Shown here: piece after piece, positions 16,217 through 64,000 of the stretch
Position numbering within the stretch: the first letter of the stretch is position 1
Layout: the number at the start of each line of letters is the position of its first letter
DNA from: an uncultured Acidimicrobiia bacterium
GTDB taxonomy: Bacteria > Actinomycetota > Acidimicrobiia > Spongiisociales > UBA5794
Direction of reading: 5' to 3'
Length of the DNA: 64,000 nt
Assembly (NCBI GenBank): GCA_963753185.1
Contig: CAVWBO010000007.1
Location: forward strand, 2,507,805-2,571,804
Position numbers and translations under genes: made by a program
Notes under the pieces: generated by a model
What the model saw: only the letters and a program-made list of their open reading frames with translations
What the model was told of the DNA's origin: nothing
Databases searched by the model: none

Positions 16217-18031
16217 ATGAATAGATACCTCATCGCAGCAGCGGTCGCCGTCCCGCTCGTCGCGGTGCTGTTCATCGGTGCCGGCTACATCCACGACGAG
16301 GTCATGTCGGACGGCAGTGTGAGTCGGGGCGTCGAGGCCGCAGGAATCGACCTTTCGCGCCTCCCTGCGGCGACCGCGCTCACTGCGGTCGCCGCATACG
16401 AGGAGCGGCTGGTGTCCGAACCGGTGGTGCTCATCATCGACGGCAAGGAGGTGGAGCTCGATCCTGCCGACGTCGACCTGGCCGTCGATGAACAAGCCGT
16501 CGTCGACGAAGCCCTCACCATCCGACGATCCGACGGAATGCTGTCCAACATCCGATCGTGGTTCGCGACGTGGTCGTCCACCGAGACCATCGACATTCCG
16601 GTGTCGTTCGACCGCGATGCGCTGGCGGCGCTGCTCTCGGGCCTGTCGCGGACGGCGATCGGGAAGCCTGCGTATGAGGGCGCCGTGCTTGTCGAGAGCG
16701 GTCTGGCGATACCCGAGTACCCGAGGCCGGGTCTGGTCATCGACGTCGATGCGTCCATTCCCCTCATCGCATCCCAACTCGAGACGCCCGACCGCTCCAC
16801 GGTCTCACTCCCGCTGATGCCGCTCGAACCTGCGGTCACCAGGGCGGATGTCGACGTCGCCGTGGCGAAGGCCAACAGGCTGATCGGCGAGCCTGTCGTC
16901 CTTCGCAAGTCGGGCCAATCCGCGACGATGATGTTCACTCCAACGGGTTTGGCCTCGGCCCTCCGATCCGAGGTCGTCGTCAACTCGCCTGCCACCCTCG
17001 AGGTTTCGCTCGACGATGCCATCCTCCGCGAAATCGCCTCAAGGACCGCCGACGAGTTCGTCGTCCCACCGCTCGACGCGACCTTCTCCTTCGACGACGT
17101 GACGAAGACCTTCACGGTCATTCCGTCGGTGACGGGGCTGAAGGTGGATCTCGACGCAATCCCGGCGATCGTGACGCGTGCGGCGCTCAGCAATCGCACG
17201 GCCGTGCTGCCGATGGCAGAAGGAGATGAGGCGGCGTTCACGACCGAGATGGCGCAAGCCATGGCACCGCTCGGAGAGGTGTCGTCCTTCACGACGAATC
17301 ATCCGTGCTGTGAGAACAGGGTCAGGAACATCCAGCTGCTCGCCGACACGATCCGAGGCTCGATCGTGATGCCTGGTGAGACGTTCTCGATCAACGAGAC
17401 AGCAGGGCAACGCACACTCGCCAAGGGGTACGTCCGAGCGGGCGCGATCATCAACGGCCGAGTCGAGTGCTGCGACAACCCCGCCAATGTCGGCGGTGGG
17501 ACGAGCCAGTTCGCAACCACCTTCTACAACGCCGTGTTCTTCGGGTGCTACGAGGATGTGTTCCACCAGCCCCACAGCCTCTACTTCTCTCGGTATCCCT
17601 TCGTCAGGGAGGCAACGCTCGGTTTCCCGGCGCCCGACGTCAAGTTCCGGAACGACTCCGACGCGATCGTCTACATCGACACGTCGTACACGCCATCGTC
17701 GATCACCGTGACCCTCTACGGGAACAACGGAGGCAGGACCTGCACGTCCGAACGGTCGGGAAACACGATCACCAGGGTCATGACGTGGCCCGATGGAAGG
17801 ATCACGACGCAGGATTGGACCTGGTTCTACAAGCAGCCACGCGAGGATGACCCTCCCCCGACGACCACGACCACCACGCAGCCACCGACGACCACGACCA
17901 CCGTGCCAGACACGACGACGACGCAGCCTCCGCCCACGACAACCACGACGACCGAGCCCCCTCCGACCACAACCACCACGACGGAGCCTCCGCCCACGAC
18001 CACGACGACGACGACGACGACGGAGCCCTAG
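16217..18031 (+). CDS. VanW-family protein with N-terminal TM anchor and C-terminal Thr/Pro-rich low-complexity tail
   Basis: N-terminal TM helix, a central YoaR/VanW domain, and a terminal (PPPTTTTTTE)n tail that ends at the stop codon. Confidence 0.7.
   Translation: MNRYLIAAAVAVPLVAVLFIGAGYIHDEVMSDGSVSRGVEAAGIDLSRLPAATALTAVAAYEERLVSEPVVLIIDGKEVELDPADVDLAVDEQAVVDEALTIRRSDGMLSNIRSWFATWSSTETIDIPVSFDRDALAALLSGLSRTAIGKPAYEGAVLVESGLAIPEYPRPGLVIDVDASIPLIASQLETPDRSTVSLPLMPLEPAVTRADVDVAVAKANRLIGEPVVLRKSGQSATMMFTPTGLASALRSEVVVNSPATLEVSLDDAILREIASRTADEFVVPPLDATFSFDDVTKTFTVIPSVTGLKVDLDAIPAIVTRAALSNRTAVLPMAEGDEAAFTTEMAQAMAPLGEVSSFTTNHPCCENRVRNIQLLADTIRGSIVMPGETFSINETAGQRTLAKGYVRAGAIINGRVECCDNPANVGGGTSQFATTFYNAVFFGCYEDVFHQPHSLYFSRYPFVREATLGFPAPDVKFRNDSDAIVYIDTSYTPSSITVTLYGNNGGRTCTSERSGNTITRVMTWPDGRITTQDWTWFYKQPREDDPPPTTTTTTQPPTTTTTVPDTTTTQPPPTTTTTTEPPPTTTTTTEPPPTTTTTTTTTEP
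17851..18030 (+). repeat. ACC/ACG-rich tandem codon repeats encoding the PT-rich tail of VanW
   Basis: Imperfect tandem repeats of CCGCCCACGACCACGACGACGACGGAGCC-like units. Confidence 0.6.
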
Positions 18032-18151: not shown

Positions 18152-19339
18152 TCAGTCGGCTTCGGGGGCGGCGTGTGCGAACCGGTTCGTGACCACGACA
18201 TCGGCGACGACCTCGACGGCGCAAATCGCACCGAGGAGGAGGACCGTCACGGCGGGCCCCTGGCCGATCAGCCCGACGAGGATCACGAACGGCACCGCGT
18301 AGAGGCGGTTCCACGCGATCCGTGAACTGAGGTCCTCCCCGGCCCGACGGATCGACGCATGCTCGATCGTTGCGATCGCGGCGAAGGCAATGGCGACTCC
18401 GGCCACCAGGACCCACCGTTCGTGCGCTCCGTACACATGGTCGTGATCGGCTCCGATGATCGCATGCTCGACCCCGACCCCGATCATCGCGATGCCGATC
18501 GCCAGCGGCAGGTGCGTGTAGATCCACACGGTCGGACGCCACGCCTTCGCGGCTCCGCGACGCCTCACGACGAACCCGTCGAGGTTGTCGAAGTGGATCC
18601 ACCAGATCCCTGACGCGAGCAGGATGCCTGTGACCCCCGTGATGGTTGTCGCCACCTGCCACTCGACATGGCCCAGGCCGACCGTGACGGCAACGATCGT
18701 CTCGCCGAGCACGAGGATCGTGAAGAGCCCGAACCTTTCGGGGAGGTGGGAGACGTCGAGGGGGACCGAGGCCTGGTCCTTTCGCATGACGTACGGCGTC
18801 GCGACGTCGATGGCGAAGGCGAGCCCCCACATCCAGAAGCGGGCAGGCTCGGGGACGACGACCGATACCAGCCAGAGCGCCGCGGCAGCGCCGAAACCGA
18901 CGAGGTAACCACGCACGAGCTTCTTCGCCTCGGGCACGTGGCGGTACACGCGTGCGTAGAGAACCAGGAGGATGATCCGCGCCGATGCGTACATCGCGGC
19001 GAACACGGTGGTGGAACCCGAGGACTCGGTCGACACCGAAGCGGCGAGGAGGGCGAGGGTGACCATCTGCGTGGCCGCGAGCATGCGATATACGAGATCG
19101 TCGGTGTCGAAGCGATCGGCGTAGAAGGTATGACTCGCCCACAGCCACCAAACCAGGACGAAGTACGCCGCATACGACAGCCAGCCTGAGAAGGAGCTGT
19201 CCGCGAGCAGGCGAATCCCGAGGGCCGCCACGACAGCGACGAAGACGAGGTCGTAGAAGAGCTCGAGCCAGGTCGCCGACCGTTCGCCCTCCTCCTCGAT
19301 GGTGCGCAGCCGCGGAGGCCGGATCGCGGCGAGCCTCAC
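18152..19339 (-). CDS. low-temperature-requirement protein A (LtrA) family membrane protein
   Basis: N-terminal WLELFYDLVFVAVV signature. Multi-TM protein of 395 aa. Confidence 0.75.
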   Translation of the reverse strand: MRLAAIRPPRLRTIEEEGERSATWLELFYDLVFVAVVAALGIRLLADSSFSGWLSYAAYFVLVWWLWASHTFYADRFDTDDLVYRMLAATQMVTLALLAASVSTESSGSTTVFAAMYASARIILLVLYARVYRHVPEAKKLVRGYLVGFGAAAALWLVSVVVPEPARFWMWGLAFAIDVATPYVMRKDQASVPLDVSHLPERFGLFTILVLGETIVAVTVGLGHVEWQVATTITGVTGILLASGIWWIHFDNLDGFVVRRRGAAKAWRPTVWIYTHLPLAIGIAMIGVGVEHAIIGADHDHVYGAHERWVLVAGVAIAFAAIATIEHASIRRAGEDLSSRIAWNRLYAVPFVILVGLIGQGPAVTVLLLGAICAVEVVADVVVTNRFAHAAPEAD

Positions 19340-20130
19340 AGGGGAACCTCGAGGCCCTGATGGATCGCGTCCGTTGCGGGTCTGAGCTGCCGTGCTCGCA
19401 ACAGCATCGCATCGACGGCCTCATCGGTGCGTGAGGGATCGAGGCTGGTGAGCACGAGCTCCGACGTGCCGACGGCGTCCGCCAGGCTGATCGCGTCCTC
19501 GAACGTCGAGTGGCCCCAGCCGCGGTGGGTTTCCATCTCCTCTGGCAGGTACTGCGAGTCGTGGATCAGCACATCAACACCACTGAGGACATTTCGTATC
19601 TCGGCATCCCGCGGCGAACCCGACTCGTGGTCCGTCACGATCCCGACACTGCGATTCGGGCCGTCGATCCGGAACCCGATCGCCCCCTGCGGATGGTTCA
19701 CGTCGAACGCGGAGACCCGGACGCCATCGACGGTGACGGGATCGCCCATGAGCTCGAACCGTAGGGCGGCATCCTCGGCGATCGAGACAGGGAAGAGCGG
19801 CGGCGAAATCGCCCTCGTCAGGATGGATCTCGAGTCACCCTGGCCCCAGAGCCGCACATCGCATGCTCCCTTCCACAACTCGTCGAGCATCGTGAGGCCC
19901 TGGATGTGATCCCAGTGGTAGTGGGACAGGAAGATGTCGACGGCCTGGGACAGCTCGAGCCCGAGGGTCCGATGCGCGGCGAGTCCCGTTCCCGCATCGA
20001 TGAACGCGACCGCCCGATGACCTGCGACGATCGCGAACGACGTGGTGTTTCCCCCGTAGCGAACATATGCCGGACCGGAGACGGGTATCGAACCGCGACC
20101 ACCGAGGACCACGATGCTTGCGTTGTCCAC
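19336..20130 (-). CDS. MBL-fold metallo-hydrolase
   Basis: HYHWDH (HxHxDH) metal-binding motif. Start placed at GTG (VDNASIVVLGG) with GGAGGAG 4 nt upstream. Overlaps ltrA by 4 nt, so probably co-transcribed. Confidence 0.7.
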   Translation of the reverse strand: MDNASIVVLGGRGSIPVSGPAYVRYGGNTTSFAIVAGHRAVAFIDAGTGLAAHRTLGLELSQAVDIFLSHYHWDHIQGLTMLDELWKGACDVRLWGQGDSRSILTRAISPPLFPVSIAEDAALRFELMGDPVTVDGVRVSAFDVNHPQGAIGFRIDGPNRSVGIVTDHESGSPRDAEIRNVLSGVDVLIHDSQYLPEEMETHRGWGHSTFEDAISLADAVGTSELVLTSLDPSRTDEAVDAMLLRARQLRPATDAIHQGLEVPL

Positions 20131-20243
20131 GTCACTCCTCCATCGACCGAAGTGGGAGGCTAGCGGGTCACGTGATGCGAAGCTGTTCGCGTGTCGGTAG
20201 GCTCGAATGTGCTCATGGACCAGGGCGGAAGGAGGTCGTTCAC

Positions 20244-21896
20244 ATGGCAAAACCTGTGATTCTCGCGGTCGACGACGACCCCCAGGTTCTGGCTGCCGTG
20301 CGGCGCGACCTTCGAACCCGATACGCGGAGTCATACCAGATCGTCGCTGCACCTTCGGGTCGCGAGGCGCTCGACGCCGTTGCCGAGATCGATGACGGGG
20401 GCCGCACCATCGCCGCATTCGTGGTCGATCAGCGGATGCCCAACATGACCGGCACCGAGTTCCTCGTCGAGGCACAGAAGACCTTCCCGAACGCGAAGCG
20501 GCTCCTCCTGACTGCCTATGCCGACACAGAGGCGGCGATTCAGGCGATCAATGACGTCGGCCTCGACCACTACCTCCTCAAACCGTGGGCGCCACCGGAG
20601 GAGCGCCTGTACCCCGTGCTCGACGATGTGCTCGACGACTGGCAGGCATCCGCGGAGCGCCCGTTCGAGGGCGTTCGCGTCTTCGGAACGACATGGTCGC
20701 CGACGACATTCGAGGTCAAGGCCTTCCTCGCCCGAAACGAGGTTGCCTACCAGTTCCTCGACATCGACCGCGACGCGGAAGCCGCCGAGCTCGCCGCGAA
20801 GCTCTCCGACGGAAGGGCCGAACTTCCCATCGTCGTCACGGAGGACGACACGGTGTTCGTGAATCCCGACAAGGCGACACTTGCTGCAGCCGTCGGGATC
20901 CATGCGACCCCGGGATCACCCTTCTACGACCTTGTGATCATCGGGGGAGGTCCCGCGGGACTCGCGGCAGCCGTCTACGGTGCGTCGGAGGGGCTCGCGA
21001 CTGCGCTCATCGAGCGCGAAGCCGCGGGCGGCCAGGCCGGCACGAGTTCACGTATCGAGAACTACCTCGGCTTCCCGAAGGGTGTGAGCGGTGCTGACCT
21101 CGCCAGGAGGGCTATTGCCCAGGCGATTCGGCTCGGTGCGGAACTCGTCACCGCCGTTGAGGTCACGGGTGTCAGGGTCGACGGACCGGTCAAGCATGTC
21201 CAGCTCTCAGACGGCTCCGAGCTGACGTGCCGCGCACTCATCGTGGCGTCCGGCATGACCGTCAAGCGCCTCGGTGTCCCCGGATACGAGCGCTTCGAGG
21301 GTGCTGGGGTCTACTACGGCGCAGCGGCCACGGAAGCAGCCACGTATAGGGACAAGGATGTCTACGTGATCGGGGGCGCGAACTCCGCGGGACAGGCCGC
21401 CGTGATGTTCTCGAAGACGAGCTCTCGCGTCACGATGGTGGTGCGCGCACCGTCGCTCGGGGAGCGCATGTCGCAGTACCTCGTCGACCAGATCGCCGGA
21501 ATCCCGAACATCGAGGTGCTGACATCCACCGAGGTCGTCGAGGTCACCGGCAGCGATAGGGTCGAGTCGATCACCCTGCGCAACACGGAGACGCTCGTGC
21601 CCGAACGTCGCGATGCTTCGGCTCTGTTCATCTTCGTCGGCGCCGTACCCCATTCGGCCTTCCTCCAGGATGTCATCGCGATGAACGCCAAGGGGTTCAT
21701 CTACACGGGACGGGACGTTCAGAGCTTCAGCGACGACTGGAGGCTCAAACGCGACCCGTTCGCCCTCGAGACGTCCGTACCCGGTGTCTTTGCGGCGGGC
21801 GACGTGCGCGAAGGGGCCGTTCGACGCGTGGCAAGCGCCGTTGGTGAGGGGTCGGTCGCCGTGACATTCGTCCACCGATACCTGGATACGGTGTGA
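20244..21896 (+). CDS. response-regulator receiver (REC) fused to a glutaredoxin-like domain and a thioredoxin-reductase-like FAD/NAD(P)-binding domain; redox-active cysteines absent from both
   Basis: N-terminal REC (ILAVDDD...FVVDQRMPNMTG...KP). Middle Grx/NrdH-like fold with SPTT in place of CxxC. TrxR-like domain with intact GxGxxG FAD and NAD(P) motifs, but AAATEA in place of the CATCDG active site. Start at MAKPVI with GGAAGGAGG upstream. Confidence 0.75.
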   Translation: MAKPVILAVDDDPQVLAAVRRDLRTRYAESYQIVAAPSGREALDAVAEIDDGGRTIAAFVVDQRMPNMTGTEFLVEAQKTFPNAKRLLLTAYADTEAAIQAINDVGLDHYLLKPWAPPEERLYPVLDDVLDDWQASAERPFEGVRVFGTTWSPTTFEVKAFLARNEVAYQFLDIDRDAEAAELAAKLSDGRAELPIVVTEDDTVFVNPDKATLAAAVGIHATPGSPFYDLVIIGGGPAGLAAAVYGASEGLATALIEREAAGGQAGTSSRIENYLGFPKGVSGADLARRAIAQAIRLGAELVTAVEVTGVRVDGPVKHVQLSDGSELTCRALIVASGMTVKRLGVPGYERFEGAGVYYGAAATEAATYRDKDVYVIGGANSAGQAAVMFSKTSSRVTMVVRAPSLGERMSQYLVDQIAGIPNIEVLTSTEVVEVTGSDRVESITLRNTETLVPERRDASALFIFVGAVPHSAFLQDVIAMNAKGFIYTGRDVQSFSDDWRLKRDPFALETSVPGVFAAGDVREGAVRRVASAVGEGSVAVTFVHRYLDTV

Positions 21897-23242
21897 CGTA
21901 CGACCTGCGCTCCGTGCCGCTGTTCTCCGGATTGCCGGACGACGATCTCGCACGGCTGTCCGACGGTCTCGCAGAGCACCACCTCCCTGCGGGAGAGACC
22001 CTGTTCGAGGAGGGTGACGAGGCAGACGTCGCGTACGTCATCACAGGTGGGGAGATCGCGATCCTCAAGGACTCGGCGGGCAGGCGGGTGCGGATCGCGG
22101 TCTCGGGCGTCGGCGATGTCGTCGGCGAGATGGCCCTCCTCACCGCCGAGCCACGAAACGCCACGGCGAAGGCCCTCACGCCGGTCGACCTCGTGTCCAT
22201 TCCCAAGAAGTGCCTCGACGAAGTGCTTGCGATCAGCGTCGCTGCCAACCGGGCGCTCTTCGAAGTCTTCATCTCGCGCTGGCGCGAACAGGAGGCGCGG
22301 GTACGTCAGTCCGAACACATGGCACAACTGGGTGTCCTGACCGCCGGGCTCGCACACGAGATGAACAACCCCGCCGCCGCCGTCACTCGTGGCTCCGAGA
22401 GCCTGGGAGGCGTGATCGACAACCTCATCGAGCTCACGAGGCGAGTACCACCGGATGTCGAGATTCCGACGCCTTCGGCCGCAGGTGCATCGTTGTCGAC
22501 GATGGAGCGCTCGGATCGGGAGGAGGAACTCGAGGAGCAGCTCGAACGACTCGGTGTCGAACGCCCGTGGGCCTACGCAGGTCCCTTGGTTGATGGTGGA
22601 TTCCTGCCCTCCGACCTCGCCGATGTCGATCCGGCACATGCCGAGATCCTCATCGCCGCGGCCTCCGCGACCGCGGAGTGCGCCTCGTTGCTGGCGGAGG
22701 TCTCCGAAGGATCCCAGCGCATGTCCTCGCTGGTCTCTGCGCTGAAGTCGTACTCCTTCCTGGACCAGGCGCCCATCCAGCAGGTGGACGTGGTGAAGGG
22801 CATCGAGGACACCTTGCTGATCCTTCGTTCCAAGACGAAGGACATCGACATTGTTCGCGAGTACGCACCGGACGTGCCACCGATCGTCGCGTTCGGGAGC
22901 CAGCTCAACCAGGTGTGGACGAACCTCATCGACAACGCCGCAGACGCCATCACCGAAGCCGGAATCGACGATGGGAGAATCGTGATCCGTGTGACGGGCG
23001 GCGAGGACACCGTGACGGTGGAGATCGAGAACAACGGGCCTGGCATCCCCCCTACCGTCATCGATCGGATCTTCGAGGCGTTCTTCACCACGAAGGAGCC
23101 TGGTCGAGGAACGGGTCTGGGCCTTGACACGGCGTATGGAATCGTCGTGACTCAGCACCGGGGCACGATCGACGTCCGATCCGTCGACGGATCGACCGTG
23201 TTCACGGTCGTCCTTCCCCACGACCAGGCAGGCACGGCCTAG
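21893..23242 (+). CDS. sensor histidine kinase with N-terminal cyclic-nucleotide-binding (CAP/cNMP) domain
   Basis: cNMP-binding phosphate-binding cassette (GEMALL...PRNATAKAL). HisKA H-box AHEMNNP. HATPase N- and G-boxes (NLIDNAADA, GTGLGL). GTG start overlaps the upstream stop (GTGA), implying translational coupling. Confidence 0.75.
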   Translation: MTYDLRSVPLFSGLPDDDLARLSDGLAEHHLPAGETLFEEGDEADVAYVITGGEIAILKDSAGRRVRIAVSGVGDVVGEMALLTAEPRNATAKALTPVDLVSIPKKCLDEVLAISVAANRALFEVFISRWREQEARVRQSEHMAQLGVLTAGLAHEMNNPAAAVTRGSESLGGVIDNLIELTRRVPPDVEIPTPSAAGASLSTMERSDREEELEEQLERLGVERPWAYAGPLVDGGFLPSDLADVDPAHAEILIAAASATAECASLLAEVSEGSQRMSSLVSALKSYSFLDQAPIQQVDVVKGIEDTLLILRSKTKDIDIVREYAPDVPPIVAFGSQLNQVWTNLIDNAADAITEAGIDDGRIVIRVTGGEDTVTVEIENNGPGIPPTVIDRIFEAFFTTKEPGRGTGLGLDTAYGIVVTQHRGTIDVRSVDGSTVFTVVLPHDQAGTA

Positions 23243-23273
23243 GGCCGCTGCCACGGCCGAACGACAGGAACCG

Positions 23274-23303
23274 CATGAGGGGCCCCGATCGGGGCCCCTC
23301 ATG
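23274..23303. terminator. 30-bp perfect palindromic GC-rich hairpin (CATGAGGGGCCCCGATCGGGGCCCCTCATG), probable bidirectional intrinsic terminator
   Basis: Lies 32 bp downstream of the HK stop, in a convergent gap with the cutinase gene. No U-tract. Confidence 0.55.
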
Positions 23304-23494
23304 GTGGCCAGTCCCATCGAGTGGGAGGGATCTGTGTCGTTGACCGACTCCGGGTCTCAGACGCCTGGGGCGCCTGCGTTGTGCTTCGATCCCTGCCGTC
23401 TCGGTGACCGGCCTCGTCCTTTCATCAACCGTCGCGCCGAATCCTGAGTTTGTCAATGAGGATTCGATGGATGCGCCAGATCTGGCGAGGCCCG

Positions 23495-24202
23495 TCAGCG
23501 AGGGCCTGGCGCCCAGCGCGCCCTGGCATCCATGCGGCTTTCGACGATCGACGTCACCCACTGTGCGGCGTCCTGATACCCCTCGGTGTGGGCGAGGAGG
23601 TCGTTACGTCCACGCTCGCAAATCCCGTCACCTGCGGCGCACACGTCGATCGCGACCGTCCTCACATGGTCAGGTAGGGCGATGGCTCCGAAGGCTCCGG
23701 GCCGCAGGGCGGTCGGATCACCGAGCCGGATCATGCCGATCTGGGAAGGATCCCTCGTCGGGTCTGCGAGCAGGACGACCGCTGCGATGCGGTGCATCGG
23801 CACGGTGCCCTCCAGTGCGGTCTTGATCACCTGAGCACCCTGGGAGTAGCCGACGAGGACGATGTCGGTCGACGGACATGTGCGCGCAACGCGCCCGACC
23901 GCCGCCCAGAGGGAGTTGACGCCTGCCCTGACGCTTGCGTCGTACTCGCCGTTGATCAGCGCGAGCCCGAGTGAATCGGCGATGGAGATCGCCGGGTAGT
24001 CGAGCGCCTCCGACGTCACCGACCTTCCGACCGCCGCCGTCGCATCGGAGATCGACCTCACGACCGGCCCCACCTGATCCCCGAAACCGCTCGGTTGGCC
24101 CGATCCCCGTGCTCCGATGACATGGGTCATCGAGCACTCCGGTGCCATCGACGGAGCTGGCGCGATCAGTGCGAGGATGAGGGAGACGGCGGCGAGCCAC
24201 AT
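23495..24202 (-). CDS. cutinase-family secreted serine esterase
   Basis: Signal peptide (MWLAAVSLILALIAPAPSMA). Cutinase motifs GARGSG and GYSQGA, with the conserved Cys pairs. Confidence 0.8.
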   Translation of the reverse strand: MWLAAVSLILALIAPAPSMAPECSMTHVIGARGSGQPSGFGDQVGPVVRSISDATAAVGRSVTSEALDYPAISIADSLGLALINGEYDASVRAGVNSLWAAVGRVARTCPSTDIVLVGYSQGAQVIKTALEGTVPMHRIAAVVLLADPTRDPSQIGMIRLGDPTALRPGAFGAIALPDHVRTVAIDVCAAGDGICERGRNDLLAHTEGYQDAAQWVTSIVESRMDARARWAPGPR

Positions 24203-24339
24203 ATCGCGATCGTACGGCCCTGAACCGGGTAGCGGACCGCACCGACGCCCGGCGCACGTCAGCGACCCAGGTCCCGTGTGCAATCATTGGACGGTCCCGC
24301 AGCGGCGTGGACGGGCGACGCACGACACGGGGGCACGAC

Positions 24340-24738
24340 ATGAGCGACTGGAATGCGCGGGTCATCGAGGAGTTTCGGGACAATGGCGGAGCCGTGGGCG
24401 GAGGGTTCGAGGGCAGACCTCTGCTGCTCCTTCATACCAGAGGAGCCAAGACGGGACGAGAGCGCGTGAGCCCGCTGATGTATCGCGAAGAAGCCGGACG
24501 GATCTACGTGTTCGCCTCCAGAGGCGGGTCTCCCGCGAATCCGGGCTGGTACCACAACCTCCGAGCGAACCCGCAGGTGACGTACGAGATCGGAACTGAG
24601 ATCCGTTCAGCACGCGCGGTCGAGGTCAACGGTGCCGAACGGGACGGCATCTACGCCAGACACGCGTCAGCGTTCCCCATGTTCGCCGAGTATCAGGAGA
24701 AGACCGACCGCACGATCCCGGTCATCGAACTCGTGTGA
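24340..24738 (+). CDS. nitroreductase-family deazaflavin (F420)-dependent oxidoreductase (Ddn-like, DUF385)
   Basis: ~130 aa. Split-barrel motif ...LLLLHTRGAKTGRERVSPLMY...GGSPANPGWYHNLRANP, typical of Ddn/PPOX-class F420H2 enzymes. Confidence 0.75.
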   Translation: MSDWNARVIEEFRDNGGAVGGGFEGRPLLLLHTRGAKTGRERVSPLMYREEAGRIYVFASRGGSPANPGWYHNLRANPQVTYEIGTEIRSARAVEVNGAERDGIYARHASAFPMFAEYQEKTDRTIPVIELV

Positions 24739-62653: not shown

Positions 62654-64000
62654 CTACCGGGGTGAACCGTCGCCGGCGTTGCCATCCAATGCGGACAGGG
62701 CATCGAGAAGTGCCCGTCTCGCCACCTCAGCGTCCTCCCCGGCCAGTGATGCCGGATCGAGCTGGAGGTTGAAGCCGCTGCCTGCGGCATTGATGGCGTT
62801 CCCCGCCCTCTGTTCCATCGTGCCGACCACTTCGTAGGTAAACAGCTTGTGGGAGATGCCCTTGACCTGGACATCTCCGACGGGGCGGCAGTAGATCTCA
62901 TCCTTGACGAGTGAGTAGGTCTCGTGGGAGATGTGAATCTGGTCCGGCTGTGCCGTGGATTCCAGCCTCGACGCGATATTGACCGACCCGCCCACGATGG
63001 TGTAGTCCATGCGGTCCTCGGAACCGAAGTTGCCGACCGTGCAGTAACCGGTGTTGATGCCCATCCGGACCCGCAGCTTCGTCGAGTCCGTCATCTCGGC
63101 CCAGCCCTCGCAGAGGTCGCGGATCCGTTCGCGCATTCGAACGGCCATGCGGACACAGGAAAGGGCATCCTGCTTTCGGCCCTTCGTCTCGGGATCGCCG
63201 AAGAAGATCATGATCCCGTCGCCTATGAACTTGTCGATCGTCCCTCCGTACTCGTCGGCGATCTTCGCCATCTCCGACAGGTATGAGTTGAGGATCTCGC
63301 TCAATCGCTCTGCTTCGAGGCGATCGGTGAGGTCAGTGAAACCGAGGATGTCGGAGAAGAAGACGGTGAGCTCCTTGCGATAGGACTCGACCCTGACCTC
63401 CCTCCTCCCCTCGAAGATCGAGTCGTACACCTGGCGGGATAGGTACTTCGCGAGCTTCGCCGACAGCGCCTCGAGTTGATCGTTCTTCTCGTTGAGCGAT
63501 TTGTTGGCGAGATGGAGGGCCTCCTCGGCCCGCTTGCGTTCCGTGATGTCCCTGACGATCCCAATGAATACGGGCTCGGAACCCGTCGACGCAGTCGCCA
63601 GTGACAGTTCGATCGGGAACTCGCGTCCGTCCCTGTGCAGCCCGGCGAGTTCGACGGTGCTCCCGATGACATGTCGCTCACCGCCTGCGACGACCCGCTC
63701 GATGCCTGCTCCGTGTCGATCGCGGAAGCGCTCGGGGACGATTGCGGTGAGGGGTTCGCCAAGCATCTCGTCGGCGGTGTAGCCGAAGAGATCCGTGGCG
63801 TGCCTGTTCCAGACGAGGACTCGGCCCTCGTGGTCGACGGAGATGATGGCGTCGTTGGCTGCGGCCAGGATGGCCTCGAGCCGGTGTGTGGTGTTCGTCA
63901 GCTCGCGGGTCACCGCCACGTGTTCGGACACATCCCTGATGATCCCGCTGAAGTACTGGTCCCCTTCGGACGTCCACGTGGCGAGGGACAGCTCAATGGG
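62654..64000 (-). CDS. multi-PAS-domain class III adenylate cyclase (N-terminus beyond the window end)
   Basis: C-terminal cyclase homology domain (FFSDILGFTD...GGTIDKFIGDGIMIFFG...NTGYCTVGNFGS). The Lys in DKFIGDG suggests ATP specificity. A PAS domain lies upstream. The ORF continues in frame to position 64000 with a second PAS C-terminal motif (FPIELSLATWTSEGDQYFSGIIRDVSEH). Confidence 0.75.
   Translation of the reverse strand, partial: PIELSLATWTSEGDQYFSGIIRDVSEHVAVTRELTNTTHRLEAILAAANDAIISVDHEGRVLVWNRHATDLFGYTADEMLGEPLTAIVPERFRDRHGAGIERVVAGGERHVIGSTVELAGLHRDGREFPIELSLATASTGSEPVFIGIVRDITERKRAEEALHLANKSLNEKNDQLEALSAKLAKYLSRQVYDSIFEGRREVRVESYRKELTVFFSDILGFTDLTDRLEAERLSEILNSYLSEMAKIADEYGGTIDKFIGDGIMIFFGDPETKGRKQDALSCVRMAVRMRERIRDLCEGWAEMTDSTKLRVRMGINTGYCTVGNFGSEDRMDYTIVGGSVNIASRLESTAQPDQIHISHETYSLVKDEIYCRPVGDVQVKGISHKLFTYEVVGTMEQRAGNAINAAGSGFNLQLDPASLAGEDAEVARRALLDALSALDGNAGDGSPR

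What the first reader, a model, noticed from the sequence alone, without database searches (positions are those of the whole stretch)
20244..23242. Translationally coupled cNMP-binding histidine kinase plus REC-Grx-like-TrxR-like flavoprotein lacking all redox cysteines
The response regulator's output is a thioredoxin-reductase-like FAD/NAD(P) domain preceded by a glutaredoxin/NrdH-like fold. Both canonical dithiol motifs are replaced (CxxC to SPTT, and CATCDG to AAATEA). The FAD and NAD(P) GxGxxG motifs are intact. The partner kinase starts 4 nt inside the regulator's stop (GTGA). It carries an N-terminal CAP-type cyclic-nucleotide-binding domain with an intact phosphate-binding cassette (GEMALL...RNATAKAL). 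This implies a cAMP- or cGMP-gated two-component system. Its output would be a flavoprotein that cannot do thiol-disulfide chemistry. It could be a pseudo-enzyme or scaffold, or a non-dithiol NAD(P)H:flavin oxidoreductase controlled by phosphorylation. A multi-PAS adenylate cyclase at 62654 is a candidate signal source.
Basis: partly seen in the sequence, partly recalled or inferred. Interest (0 to 1): 0.7.

Follow-up and report, generated by a model that had tools for sequence, protein, structure and literature searches.

The report
Cyclic-nucleotide-sensing kinase controlling a cysteine-less flavoprotein regulator
Two overlapping genes encode a cyclic-nucleotide-sensing histidine kinase and a response regulator whose output is a thioredoxin-reductase-like flavoprotein that has lost every redox cysteine; the pair belongs to a very large, multi-phylum family with no tested function that is repeatedly tied to cAMP/cGMP signalling.

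Summary
The regulator (20244-21896) is REC + mycoredoxin-like domain + thioredoxin-reductase (TrxR)-like domain. WCGYC has become WSPTT and CATCDG has become AAATEA. The kinase (21893-23242) starts in a GTGA overlap and has a CAP-type cNMP domain with the ligand-binding Glu and Arg.

This is a conserved family trait, not a local oddity.
- None of 79 orthologous regulators has a CxxC, while the FAD and NAD(P)H positions are invariant.
- 56 of 75 informative loci have the cNMP-kinase directly downstream, mostly overlapping by 4 or 1 nt.
- Among 150 diverse relatives, the same Cys-less module carries an N-terminal REC in 61 and a directly fused cNMP domain in 53.
- One relative (P0231) keeps both CxxC motifs and looks like the ancestral form.
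- Seven loci have a class III cyclase directly upstream on the same strand.

Most likely this is a cAMP/cGMP-gated two-component system that controls an NAD(P)H-dependent flavoprotein without dithiol chemistry. Its substrate is unknown.

The cyclase at 62654 shows one PAS domain, lies 39 kb away and has no synteny support.

The REC-TrxR architecture is already listed in regulator censuses. I rate it a new variant of a known kind.

The parts
20227..20235 (+). Shine-Dalgarno GGAAGGAGG, 8 nt before the regulator's ATG. It lies in the 113-nt divergent intergenic region 20131-20243, the presumed promoter region.
   Evidence: No sigma-70 consensus was found, which is uninformative for a 65% GC actinobacterium.
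20244..21896 (+). Response regulator gene, 550 aa: REC + mycoredoxin-like domain + TrxR-like FAD/NAD(P) domain
   Evidence: AF2 model with pLDDT 83. Foldseek top hits are TrxRs, E 1e-33.
20259..20597 (+). Receiver (REC) domain, residues 6-118, with phospho-acceptor D62
   Evidence: Pfam PF00072. D10, D11, D62, T90 and K113 are invariant in 150 sequences.
20673..20891 (+). Mycoredoxin/NrdH-like thioredoxin-fold domain, residues 144-216. WSPTT (20694-20708) replaces WCxxC.
   Evidence: TIGR02200 E 1e-11. PDB 2LQO E 6e-6 with C to S152 and C to T155. W151, S152 and P153 are conserved in orthologues.
20925..21884 (+). TrxR-like flavoprotein domain, residues 228-547. FAD motif GGGPAG; ex-active-site AAATEA (21321-21338); NAD(P) motif GGANSAGQ.
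21893..21896 (+). GTGA overlap: the kinase GTG start overlaps the regulator's TGA stop
   Evidence: The same 4-nt overlap occurs in 26 loci and a 1-nt overlap in 9 loci.
21893..23242 (+). Cytoplasmic histidine kinase, 449 aa: cNMP-binding domain + DHp (H155) with a roughly 90-aa insertion + HATPase_c
21977..22231 (+). CAP/PKA-type cNMP-binding domain, residues 29-113. The phosphate-binding cassette GEMALLTAEPRNATAKA lies at 22124-22174.
   Evidence: PF00027 at 74 bits. G78, E79, P87, R88 and A90 are at least 90% conserved in 53 orthologues.
22901..23224 (+). HATPase_c catalytic domain, residues 337-444. The phospho-acceptor His155 codon is at 22355-22357.
23271..23307 (.). GC-rich hairpin (13-bp perfect stem, 4-nt loop) between the kinase stop and the convergent cutinase gene. 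It is a likely terminator without a U tract.
   Evidence: 88-nt fold -52.5 kcal/mol, z -3.7. The consensus terminator scan found nothing.
62654..64000 (-). PAS + class III nucleotide cyclase. The reading frame is open to the window end, so the N-terminus may be cut. It is a possible but unsupported signal source.

Best explanation
The two genes form a bicistronic, translationally coupled two-component system.

Proposed chain of events:
1. The soluble kinase binds a 3',5'-cyclic nucleotide, most likely cAMP, in its N-terminal CAP/PKA-type domain.
2. Binding changes autophosphorylation at His155.
3. The phosphoryl group passes to Asp62 of the regulator.
4. The regulator has no DNA-binding domain. 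Its output is a dimeric FAD flavoprotein descended from a mycoredoxin/NrdH-TrxR fusion in which all four redox cysteines were replaced: Ser/Thr in the redoxin part, and Ala(or Gly)/Thr next to an invariant Glu in the reductase part.
5. I propose that the module still binds FAD and oxidises NAD(P)H, with relaxed NADH/NADPH preference. REC phosphorylation would gate electron flow from the flavin to a non-dithiol acceptor, or gate the TrxR-type domain rotation. The Cys-less redoxin domain would act as a built-in docking or regulatory pseudo-substrate. In sister proteins a directly fused cNMP domain would do the gating.

Status of each step:
- Shown: gene anatomy, domain identities, loss of Cys, conservation, synteny and the domain fusions.
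- Inferred: ligand, phosphotransfer, cofactor binding, catalysis and the acceptor.
For: Anatomy and domains.

Signalling competence:
- Kinase H, N, G1, F and G2 boxes and the cNMP cassette Glu79/Arg88 are at least 90% conserved in 53 orthologues.
- REC residues D10, D11, D62, T90 and K113 are invariant.

Operon:
- The cNMP-kinase lies directly downstream in 56 of 75 informative loci. The overlap is 4 nt in 26 loci and 1 nt in 9.
- The same arrangement is seen in a cyanobacterium.

Three independent links between the module and cNMP:
- The partner kinase's sensor domain.
- Of 150 representatives at 50% identity, 61 carry REC, 53 carry a directly fused cNMP domain and one carries both.
- An orthologous zinc-ribbon/class III cyclase/AAA/TPR gene lies directly upstream on the same strand in L035 (with a metallophosphoesterase gene between cyclase and regulator), L038, L067, L072, L075, L076 and L078. 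It is divergent in L032, L062 and L077.

Module under selection rather than decaying:
- FAD positions (G236, P237, G239, G262-Q264, N273, G519, D520) and NAD(P) positions (G377, N380-Q384, R401) are invariant in 150 sequences.
- E364, aligned with the TrxR acid catalyst Asp, is present in 130 of 150 representatives and 120 of 120 cNMP-fused proteins.

Ancestry: P0231 keeps WCPDC and CAT-CDG and aligns over the whole module (38% identity, E 1e-102), including the family-specific insertion.

Structure: the AF2 model (pLDDT 83) matches TrxRs. It fits the flavin-reducing (FR) conformation best: L. lactis TrxR FR form 5mh4 gives TM 0.87, against 0.66 for its flavin-oxidising (FO) form 5mjk.

Biochemistry of a probable sister: ATII-TrxR has a cNMP domain plus a TrxB domain (1659-bp ORF). 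It was purified as a dimer with 1.87 FAD per dimer and oxidised both NADPH (Km 5.2 uM) and NADH (Km 4.2 uM) (PMC6544261).
Against: - No experiment exists on any REC-fused member. Searches of the held literature found only a census mention.
- The NADPH 2'-phosphate triad HRR is VRA, and the third position of the dinucleotide motif is Ala where TrxRs have Gly. NAD(P)H binding is therefore plausible but unproven.
- No conserved neighbouring gene suggests an electron acceptor.
- I could not obtain the ATII-TrxR sequence, so its membership of the Cys-less clade rests on architecture and on the cysteines its authors name. That clade also keeps one Cys (window position 368) which the window protein lacks (Tyr).
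- The overall frequency of a cyclase within 6 kb (18 of 80 loci) is about what the window's own cyclase density predicts. Only the direct adjacency is informative.
Confidence: 0.5

Rival explanations
1. Pseudo-enzyme or redox sensor. The Cys-less module binds FAD and/or NAD(P)(H) but catalyses nothing. It would use the TrxR-type domain rotation or dimer interface as a conformational output or a second input. The regulator would then integrate the cNMP-driven phosphorylation signal with the cell's NAD(P)H state and act through protein-protein contacts.
For: - All four redox cysteines are gone family-wide.
- No conserved acceptor or substrate gene lies nearby.
- The redoxin-like domain is retained although it cannot accept electrons.
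- The model favours one conformation, FR-like.
Against: - E364 at the acid-catalyst position and the SxxT pair are conserved more strongly than a pure scaffold would seem to need.
- The probable sister ATII-TrxR turns over NAD(P)H (PMC6544261).
- REC and cNMP domains usually gate enzymes when fused to enzyme folds (general knowledge).
Confidence: 0.3
2. Non-canonical disulfide reductase. The module would still reduce a disulfide (thioredoxin, mycothiol disulfide or a similar substrate). It would do so either by direct hydride or flavin attack, as has been proposed for the YpdA/Bdr-type enzymes, or with a thiol supplied by a partner.
For: - ATII-TrxR was reported to reduce DTNB (kcat 5.6 per s) and a thioredoxin in an insulin assay (PMC6544261).
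- There is a weak NCBIfam match to YpdA (E 2e-20).
- The mycoredoxin-like fold, with Ser in place of the nucleophilic Cys, could still bind a thiol substrate (inference).
Against: - The window protein has a single Cys (C329), remote from both former sites, and lacks the Cys368 that most of the superfamily keeps.
- The ATII assays follow NADPH or DTNB absorbance and may include oxidase or diaphorase background (my reading).
- Similarity to TrxR (E 1e-52) far exceeds that to YpdA.
Confidence: 0.12
3. TrxR-like ferredoxin/flavodoxin-NAD(P)+ reductase (YumC/TRLF type) placed under two-component control.
For: - It is a Cys-less TrxR fold that keeps its FAD and NAD(P) motifs.
- PDB TRLF enzymes are detectable homologues (2zbw E 1e-22; 3lzw E 1e-16).
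Against: - It is much closer to true TrxRs (E 1e-52 to 1e-37) than to TRLFs.
- The Foldseek TM to 2zbw is 0.57, against 0.84-0.87 for FR-state TrxRs.
- It descends from a redoxin-TrxR fusion.
- No ferredoxin or flavodoxin gene is conserved nearby.
Confidence: 0.06
4. Ordinary thioredoxin reductase, as JGI annotates the family ('thioredoxin reductase (NADPH)').
For: Automatic annotations and the best Pfam and NCBIfam matches.
Against: - There is no CxxC in any of 79 orthologues or 120 cNMP-fused relatives.
- TIGR01292 scores 243 bits, below its 343-bit cut-off.
Confidence: 0.02

Closest known systems
Low-molecular-weight thioredoxin reductase (TrxB; e.g. E. coli 1F6M, Thermosipho 7JYP)
   Same: Two-domain FAD/NAD(P) fold, 30-35% identity. 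It shares GxGxxG, the GGQ...ENYPGF loop and GD(V). The model superposes at TM 0.84-0.87 on FR-state structures.
   Different: - No redox-active CxxC; AAATEA replaces CATCDG.
- HRR is VRA, and NSAxEE is NSAGQA.
- There is a 16-residue insertion before ETSVPG.
- It is fused to REC and a redoxin-like domain.
- It scores below the equivalog cut-off.
Mycoredoxin-1 / NrdH-type glutaredoxin-like proteins (M. tuberculosis Rv3198A, PDB 2LQO)
   Same: Best PDB match of residues 138-222. It has the same length and the same cis-Pro and NP landmarks.
   Different: WCGYC is WSPTT, so it has no thiol. It is a domain inside a larger protein.
Redoxin-TrxR fusion with intact cysteines (P0231, Anaerolineae, 407 aa; the order of a thioredoxin-fold domain followed by a TrxR-like domain also recalls AhpF)
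   Same: Same domain order, 38% identity over the whole module, and the same family-specific insertion.
   Different: P0231 keeps WCPDC and CAT-CDG and has no REC or cNMP domain. It is the only one of 150 representatives with a CxxC.
cNMP-binding-domain-fused 'thioredoxin reductase' (ATII-TrxR from the Red Sea brine pool, 87% identical to a Cupriavidus metallidurans protein; PMC6544261)
   Same: It is probably the sister architecture: cNMP domain, an 87-residue gap where the redoxin-like domain sits, then a TrxB domain. It is an FAD-bound dimer that uses NADH and NADPH. The cNMP-fused clade shares SxxT, YY.A..E and GG.NSAGQAA.
   Different: The nucleotide sensor is fused directly rather than acting through a kinase and REC. 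That clade keeps one Cys at window position 368. Its authors treated it as a genuine TrxR and did not test cNMP.
[quoted passage not shown]
   Same: Same domain combination.
   Different: The census passages retrieved only list the architecture. They do not mention the loss of cysteines, the redoxin-like domain, the cNMP-kinase partner or any function.
TrxR-like ferredoxin-NADP+ reductases (YumC, Chlorobaculum FNR) and YpdA/Bdr
   Same: They are precedents for TrxR-fold flavoenzymes that work without the CxxC.
   Different: They are only distantly related by sequence, they are not regulated by REC or cNMP domains, and they have no redoxin-like domain.

Membership tests
Two-component system (histidine kinase + response regulator) | Kinase with a phospho-acceptor His in the H-box and N, G1, F and G2 ATP-binding boxes | tested here: met
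   AHEMNNP (H155), NQVWTNLIDNA, NGPGIP, FFTTK and GTGLGL are at least 90% conserved in 53 orthologues. HATPase_c scores 82 bits.
Two-component system (histidine kinase + response regulator) | Receiver domain with the acidic pocket, phospho-acceptor Asp, and conserved Thr and Lys | tested here: met
   D10, D11, D62, T90 and K113 are invariant in 150 sequences. PF00072 scores 55 bits.
Two-component system (histidine kinase + response regulator) | Cognate pairing (adjacent, co-oriented genes) and actual phosphotransfer | tested here: inconclusive
   Adjacency and overlap are conserved in 56 of 75 loci. Phosphotransfer is not testable with these tools.
CAP/PKA-type cyclic-nucleotide-binding domain | Profile match above the Pfam gathering score | tested here: met
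   PF00027 scores 74.1 bits against a cut-off of 27.5, residues 29-113.
CAP/PKA-type cyclic-nucleotide-binding domain | Phosphate-binding cassette with the Glu that binds the ribose 2'-OH and the Arg that binds the cyclic phosphate | tested here: met
   G78-E79-M-A-L-L...P87-R88-N-A90-T. E79 and R88 are at least 90% conserved.
CAP/PKA-type cyclic-nucleotide-binding domain | Binds cAMP or cGMP | not testable with these tools
   Needs ITC or a similar binding assay. Nucleotide specificity cannot be read from the sequence.
Thioredoxin-disulfide reductase (TrxB, TIGR01292) | Redox-active CxxC (CATC) in the NADPH domain | tested here: not met
   AAATEA in the window. No CxxC in 79 orthologues or in 149 of 150 representatives.
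Thioredoxin-disulfide reductase (TrxB, TIGR01292) | Equivalog score above the curated cut-off | tested here: not met
   243.4 bits against a cut-off of 343.45.
Thioredoxin-disulfide reductase (TrxB, TIGR01292) | FAD-binding GxGxxG plus the GGQ/ENYPG and GD motifs | tested here: met
   GGGPAG, GGQAGTSSRIENYLGFP and AAGDV are invariant positions.
Thioredoxin-disulfide reductase (TrxB, TIGR01292) | NADPH site: GxGxxA and the HRRxxxR 2'-phosphate binders | tested here: inconclusive
   The motif is GGANSAGQ, with Ala at the third position where TrxRs have Gly. HRR is VRA, and only R401 is kept and invariant.
Glutaredoxin / mycoredoxin / NrdH | Thioredoxin fold with a CxxC (or CxxS) active site | tested here: not met
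   The fold-level match is kept (2LQO E 6e-6; TIGR02200 at 45 bits, below the 89.5 cut-off). The motif is WSPTT.
TrxR-like ferredoxin-NADP+ reductase (TRLF) | Closer kinship to YumC/FNR-type enzymes than to TrxRs | tested here: not met
   E 1e-17 to 1e-22 for TRLFs against 1e-52 for TrxRs. TM 0.57 against 0.87.
REC-TrxB response regulators (census class) | REC domain N-terminal to a TrxB-like domain in one polypeptide | tested here: met
   (PMC5847659).

The most novel reading that the evidence does not exclude
The Cys-less redoxin-TrxR module could be a widespread, previously unrecognised class of cyclic-nucleotide effector. It would be a flavoprotein whose NAD(P)H turnover or FO/FR conformational switch is gated by a fused cNMP domain, or by a cNMP-sensing kinase acting through REC. 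That would couple cAMP/cGMP signalling directly to cellular redox or electron flow. The module occurs in Actinomycetota, Chloroflexota, Cyanobacteria, Myxococcota and a chytrid fungus.
Probability: 0.3. Interest if true: 0.8.

Novelty: new variant of a known kind. Interest (0 to 1): 0.55.

Why it matters
- Few bacterial cAMP/cGMP effectors beyond CRP-type transcription factors are understood. This family has more than 8000 database hits in each of three searches. It spans several phyla, and one fungal member was found.
- Three independent genomic signals tie it to cyclic nucleotides. Even so, JGI labels it 'thioredoxin reductase (NADPH)' and NCBI labels it generically.
- Recognising that the canonical chemistry is impossible corrects a widespread mis-annotation.
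- It also defines a tractable question: what does a phosphorylation- or cAMP-gated flavoprotein without redox cysteines reduce, or sense?
- It is a clean natural example of an enzyme fusion (redoxin + reductase) re-purposed after all its catalytic thiols were lost while its cofactor sites were kept.

Tried and rejected
- The first AF2 run used 58 close homologues and was poor (pLDDT 66). It was replaced by a 150-sequence alignment.
- The afdb50 fold library was unavailable.
- Exact-sequence context look-ups for the window regulator found nothing.
- Literature searches for 'fused response regulator' + thioredoxin, 'REC-TrxB', and cNMP + TrxR + histidine kinase found nothing relevant. Galperin 2006 was not held.
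- I tested whether the divergent MBL-fold gene (19336-20130) is an Rv1339-like cAMP phosphodiesterase. Its SHYHWDH fits the [T/S]HxHxDH signature (PMC9293780), and there is a weak full-length NCBIfam hit to a cyclic-nucleotide phosphodiesterase (36 bits against a 400-bit cut-off). However, RNase Z matches are as good, RNase Z carries the same motif, and the gene is conserved only among close relatives. The result is inconclusive.
- The metallophosphoesterase directly upstream in 16 loci matches CpdA only weakly (E 7e-6). It remains a lead.
- Overall cyclase proximity (18 of 80 loci) is not above the background estimated from the window. Only direct adjacency was used as evidence.
- I tried to retrieve the Cupriavidus/ATII-TrxR sequence through P0228. 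It was not among the hits.
- Contexts of four cNMP-fused members showed no conserved partner gene.
- No Rfam element lies in 19900-23600.


Full report
**1. Observation**

The window is 65% GC. Its closest relatives are Acidimicrobiia metagenome-assembled genomes.

The regulator gene runs 20244-21896 on the + strand and encodes 550 aa. It starts at an ATG 8 nt after GGAAGGAGG. The kinase gene runs 21893-23242 and encodes 449 aa. Its GTG start overlaps the regulator's TGA stop as GTGA.

A 13-bp perfect GC-rich hairpin at 23271-23307 follows the kinase stop. It lies before a convergent cutinase gene. An MBL-fold gene lies upstream in the divergent orientation. The two genes therefore look like a self-contained bicistronic unit. 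No Rfam element or consensus promoter or terminator was found.

**2. Domains**

The regulator has three parts.
- REC domain, residues 6-118.
- A mycoredoxin-like domain. NCBIfam TIGR02200 covers 144-216 at E 1e-11, and Pfam Glutaredoxin gives only E 3e-3.
- A TrxR-like domain. Pyr_redox_2 covers 228-536, and TIGR01292 scores 243 bits, below its cut-off of 343.

The kinase has a cNMP_binding domain (29-113, 74 bits) and HATPase_c (337-444). It has no detected membrane segment or other sensor domain.

The redoxin-like domain's best PDB match is M. tuberculosis mycoredoxin-1 (2LQO). In that alignment TSWCGYC lines up with TTWSPTT.

Three TrxR alignments put the CATCDG active site on AAATEA, allowing one residue of slippage. 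T363 sits at the second Cys and E364 at the acid-catalyst Asp. The NADPH 2'-phosphate triad HRR is VRA. The protein's only cysteine is C329, which is far from both sites.

The exception is that the NAD(P) site is altered rather than intact.

**3. A family trait, not a local accident**

Each of three protein searches hit the 8000-candidate ceiling.

I recovered eighty genome loci from Acidimicrobiia, Nitriliruptoria, Chloroflexota and other groups. Across 79 orthologous regulators:
- None has a Cys at the reductase site. Five have a lone Cys at the second position of the redoxin motif.
- The replacement motifs are conserved as W-S-P-x-[TS] and Y-Y-G-A-A-x-[TS]-E-A.
- G-G-A-N-S-A-G-Q is nearly invariant.

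In a 150-sequence alignment at 53-95% identity, the FAD contacts, the NAD(P) motif, R401 and the REC phospho-acceptor set are all invariant.

Fifty-three orthologous kinases keep the cNMP cassette (G78, E79, P87, R88, A90) and all catalytic boxes at 90% or more.

This pattern indicates purifying selection on cofactor binding and signalling, not decay.

**4. Gene pairing**

Of 75 loci with enough flanking sequence, 56 have the cNMP-kinase directly downstream of the regulator. The genes overlap by 4 nt in 26 loci and by 1 nt in 9.

Ten further loci have, directly upstream, a kinase with the same DHp-CA core but a different sensor. Those inspected carry a REC, a membrane domain or an unassigned domain.

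A Nostocales cyanobacterium carries the regulator followed by two cNMP-kinase paralogues.

**5. Links to cyclic nucleotides beyond the kinase**

I ran a full HMMER scan of 1.84 billion cluster representatives, using only the redoxin + reductase part as query. Among the best 150 hits:
- 61 have an N-terminal REC.
- 53 have an N-terminal cNMP-binding domain fused directly.
- One has both.
- The rest are stand-alone proteins or fragments.

In 120 cNMP-fused proteins there is no CxxC anywhere. S-x-x-T, YY.A..E and GG.NSAGQAA are conserved, and a single Cys sits at window position 368 in 118 of them. One member of the cNMP-fused group is from a chytrid fungus.

An orthologous gene of about 1200 aa (zinc ribbon, class III cyclase, AAA, TPR) lies directly upstream of the regulator in several loci.
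- Same strand: L035 (with a metallophosphoesterase gene in between), L038, L067, L072, L075, L076 and L078.
- Divergent: L032, L062 and L077.

Any cyclase within 6 kb occurs in 18 of 80 loci. That is no more than the window's own density of one cyclase per 64 kb would predict. Only the direct adjacency therefore counts as evidence.

The window's own cyclase (62654-64000, minus strand) shows one PAS domain plus a class III catalytic domain. Its reading frame runs off the window end, and it lies about 39 kb away.

**6. Origin of the module**

P0231 is a 407-aa protein from Anaerolineae. It is the only one of the 150 representatives with CxxC motifs, and it has both: WCPDC and CAT-CDG. It aligns with the window module end to end (38% identity, E 1e-102, five gaps). 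The alignment includes the roughly 16-residue insertion before ETSVPG that ordinary TrxRs lack.

The module therefore looks like a descendant of a self-contained redoxin-TrxR fusion that lost all four thiols.

**7. Structure**

With the deeper alignment, AF2 gave pLDDT 83 and pTM 0.65. Foldseek's top hits are TrxRs (E 1e-33).

The fit is better to flavin-reducing (FR) conformations than to flavin-oxidising (FO) ones.
- FR: L. lactis 5mh4 TM 0.87; the E. coli TrxR-thioredoxin complex 1f6m TM 0.84.
- FO: L. lactis 5mjk TM 0.66.

This is a model preference, not a measurement. I could not read the coordinates, so I could not locate the redoxin-like domain relative to the former active site.

**8. 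What is known**

[quoted passage not shown] Database names are generic or wrong: 'FAD-dependent oxidoreductase', 'thioredoxin reductase (NADPH)' and 'ATP-binding protein'.

The only biochemistry I found is on ATII-TrxR (PMC6544261). It has a cNMP domain at residues 13-146 and a TrxB domain at 234-522.
- It is a dimer with 1.87 FAD per dimer.
- Km is 5.2 uM for NADPH and 4.2 uM for NADH.
- It reduced DTNB, and it reduced a thioredoxin in an insulin assay.
- The authors name Cys206/223 and Cys376/467 as redox centres, not a CxxC.
- They did not test cyclic nucleotides.

Cys376 probably corresponds to the family's position-368 Cys, which the window protein has replaced by Tyr. I could not retrieve the ATII-TrxR sequence to confirm this.

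**9. Mechanism**

Best-supported chain, with the status of each step:
1. A cyclic nucleotide binds the kinase's CAP-type domain (inferred from intact cassette residues).
2. This changes autophosphorylation at H155 and transfer to D62 (inferred from intact motifs and conserved coupling).
3. REC phosphorylation gates a flavoprotein that binds FAD and NAD(P)H but cannot use a dithiol relay (cofactor binding inferred from conservation and from the sister enzyme).
4. The output is electron transfer to a non-thiol acceptor, or a redox-linked conformational signal (speculative).

I put about 0.85 on 'functional cNMP-linked two-component system with a flavoprotein output' and about 0.5 on the whole statement including catalysis.

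Rivals:
- Pseudo-enzyme or NAD(P)H sensor: 0.3.
- Non-canonical disulfide reductase: 0.12.
- TRLF-type ferredoxin reductase: 0.06.
- Ordinary TrxR: excluded by the sequence.

**10. Verdict**

The architecture is already catalogued. I found no paper in the held library that describes three things: the family-wide loss of all redox cysteines, the redoxin-TrxR ancestry, and the threefold tie to cyclic nucleotides.

I rate it a new variant of a known kind, interest 0.55.

Noticed in passing
window 22415-22690 (kinase residues ~175-265): There is a roughly 90-residue insertion between the H-box helix and the second DHp helix. It is partly conserved in 53 orthologues (R.d.E...E..L...gv...W..a..Lv..g) and also present in the kinases that lack the cNMP domain. 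Its role is unknown.
   Followed up: partly
window 19336-20130 (-): This MBL-fold (Lactamase_B_2) gene is divergent from the regulator and conserved in 20 close loci. It has an SHYHWDH motif and a weak full-length match to a cyclic-nucleotide phosphodiesterase model, but equally good RNase Z matches. It may be an Rv1339-like cAMP phosphodiesterase; this is unresolved.
   Followed up: partly
L019:5116-5970 and 15 other loci: A metallophosphoesterase gene (GDxxDN, GNHD) sits directly upstream of the regulator on the same strand in 16 loci. Its best NCBIfam match is the cAMP phosphodiesterase CpdA, but only at E 7e-6.
   Followed up: partly
P0126 (714 aa), P0221 (599 aa), P0231 (407 aa): P0126 carries REC, the Cys-less module and a C-terminal cNMP domain in one chain. 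P0221 is a cNMP-fused member from the chytrid fungus Spizellomyces punctatus. P0231 is the only relative found with both CxxC motifs intact.
   Followed up: partly
window 21345-21347 (regulator residue 368): Most of the superfamily keeps a single Cys here: 118 of 120 cNMP-fused proteins, and the consensus of the cyanobacterial REC-fused proteins. The window's clade has Tyr. This may separate sub-clades with different chemistry.
   Followed up: partly
L082:6864-10400: In the cyanobacterium Okeanomitos corallinicola, the regulator gene is followed by a PIN-domain pair that looks like a toxin-antitoxin system, and then by two tandem cNMP-kinase paralogues.
   Followed up: no
window 16217-18031 (+): A VanW / peptidoglycan-binding protein ends in a long Thr/Pro-rich tail (TTTTTEPPP repeats).
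   Followed up: no
window 24307-24738 (+) and 18152-19339 (-): An F420H2-dependent quinone reductase (Ddn-like) gene lies downstream, which suggests the organism uses F420. An LtrA-family membrane protein gene lies upstream. Neither is conserved with the pair outside close relatives.
   Followed up: no
window 62654-64000 (-): The PAS + class III cyclase reading frame is open to the window end, so the 425-aa ORF listed may be N-terminally truncated. Adenylate versus guanylate specificity was not examined.
   Followed up: partly
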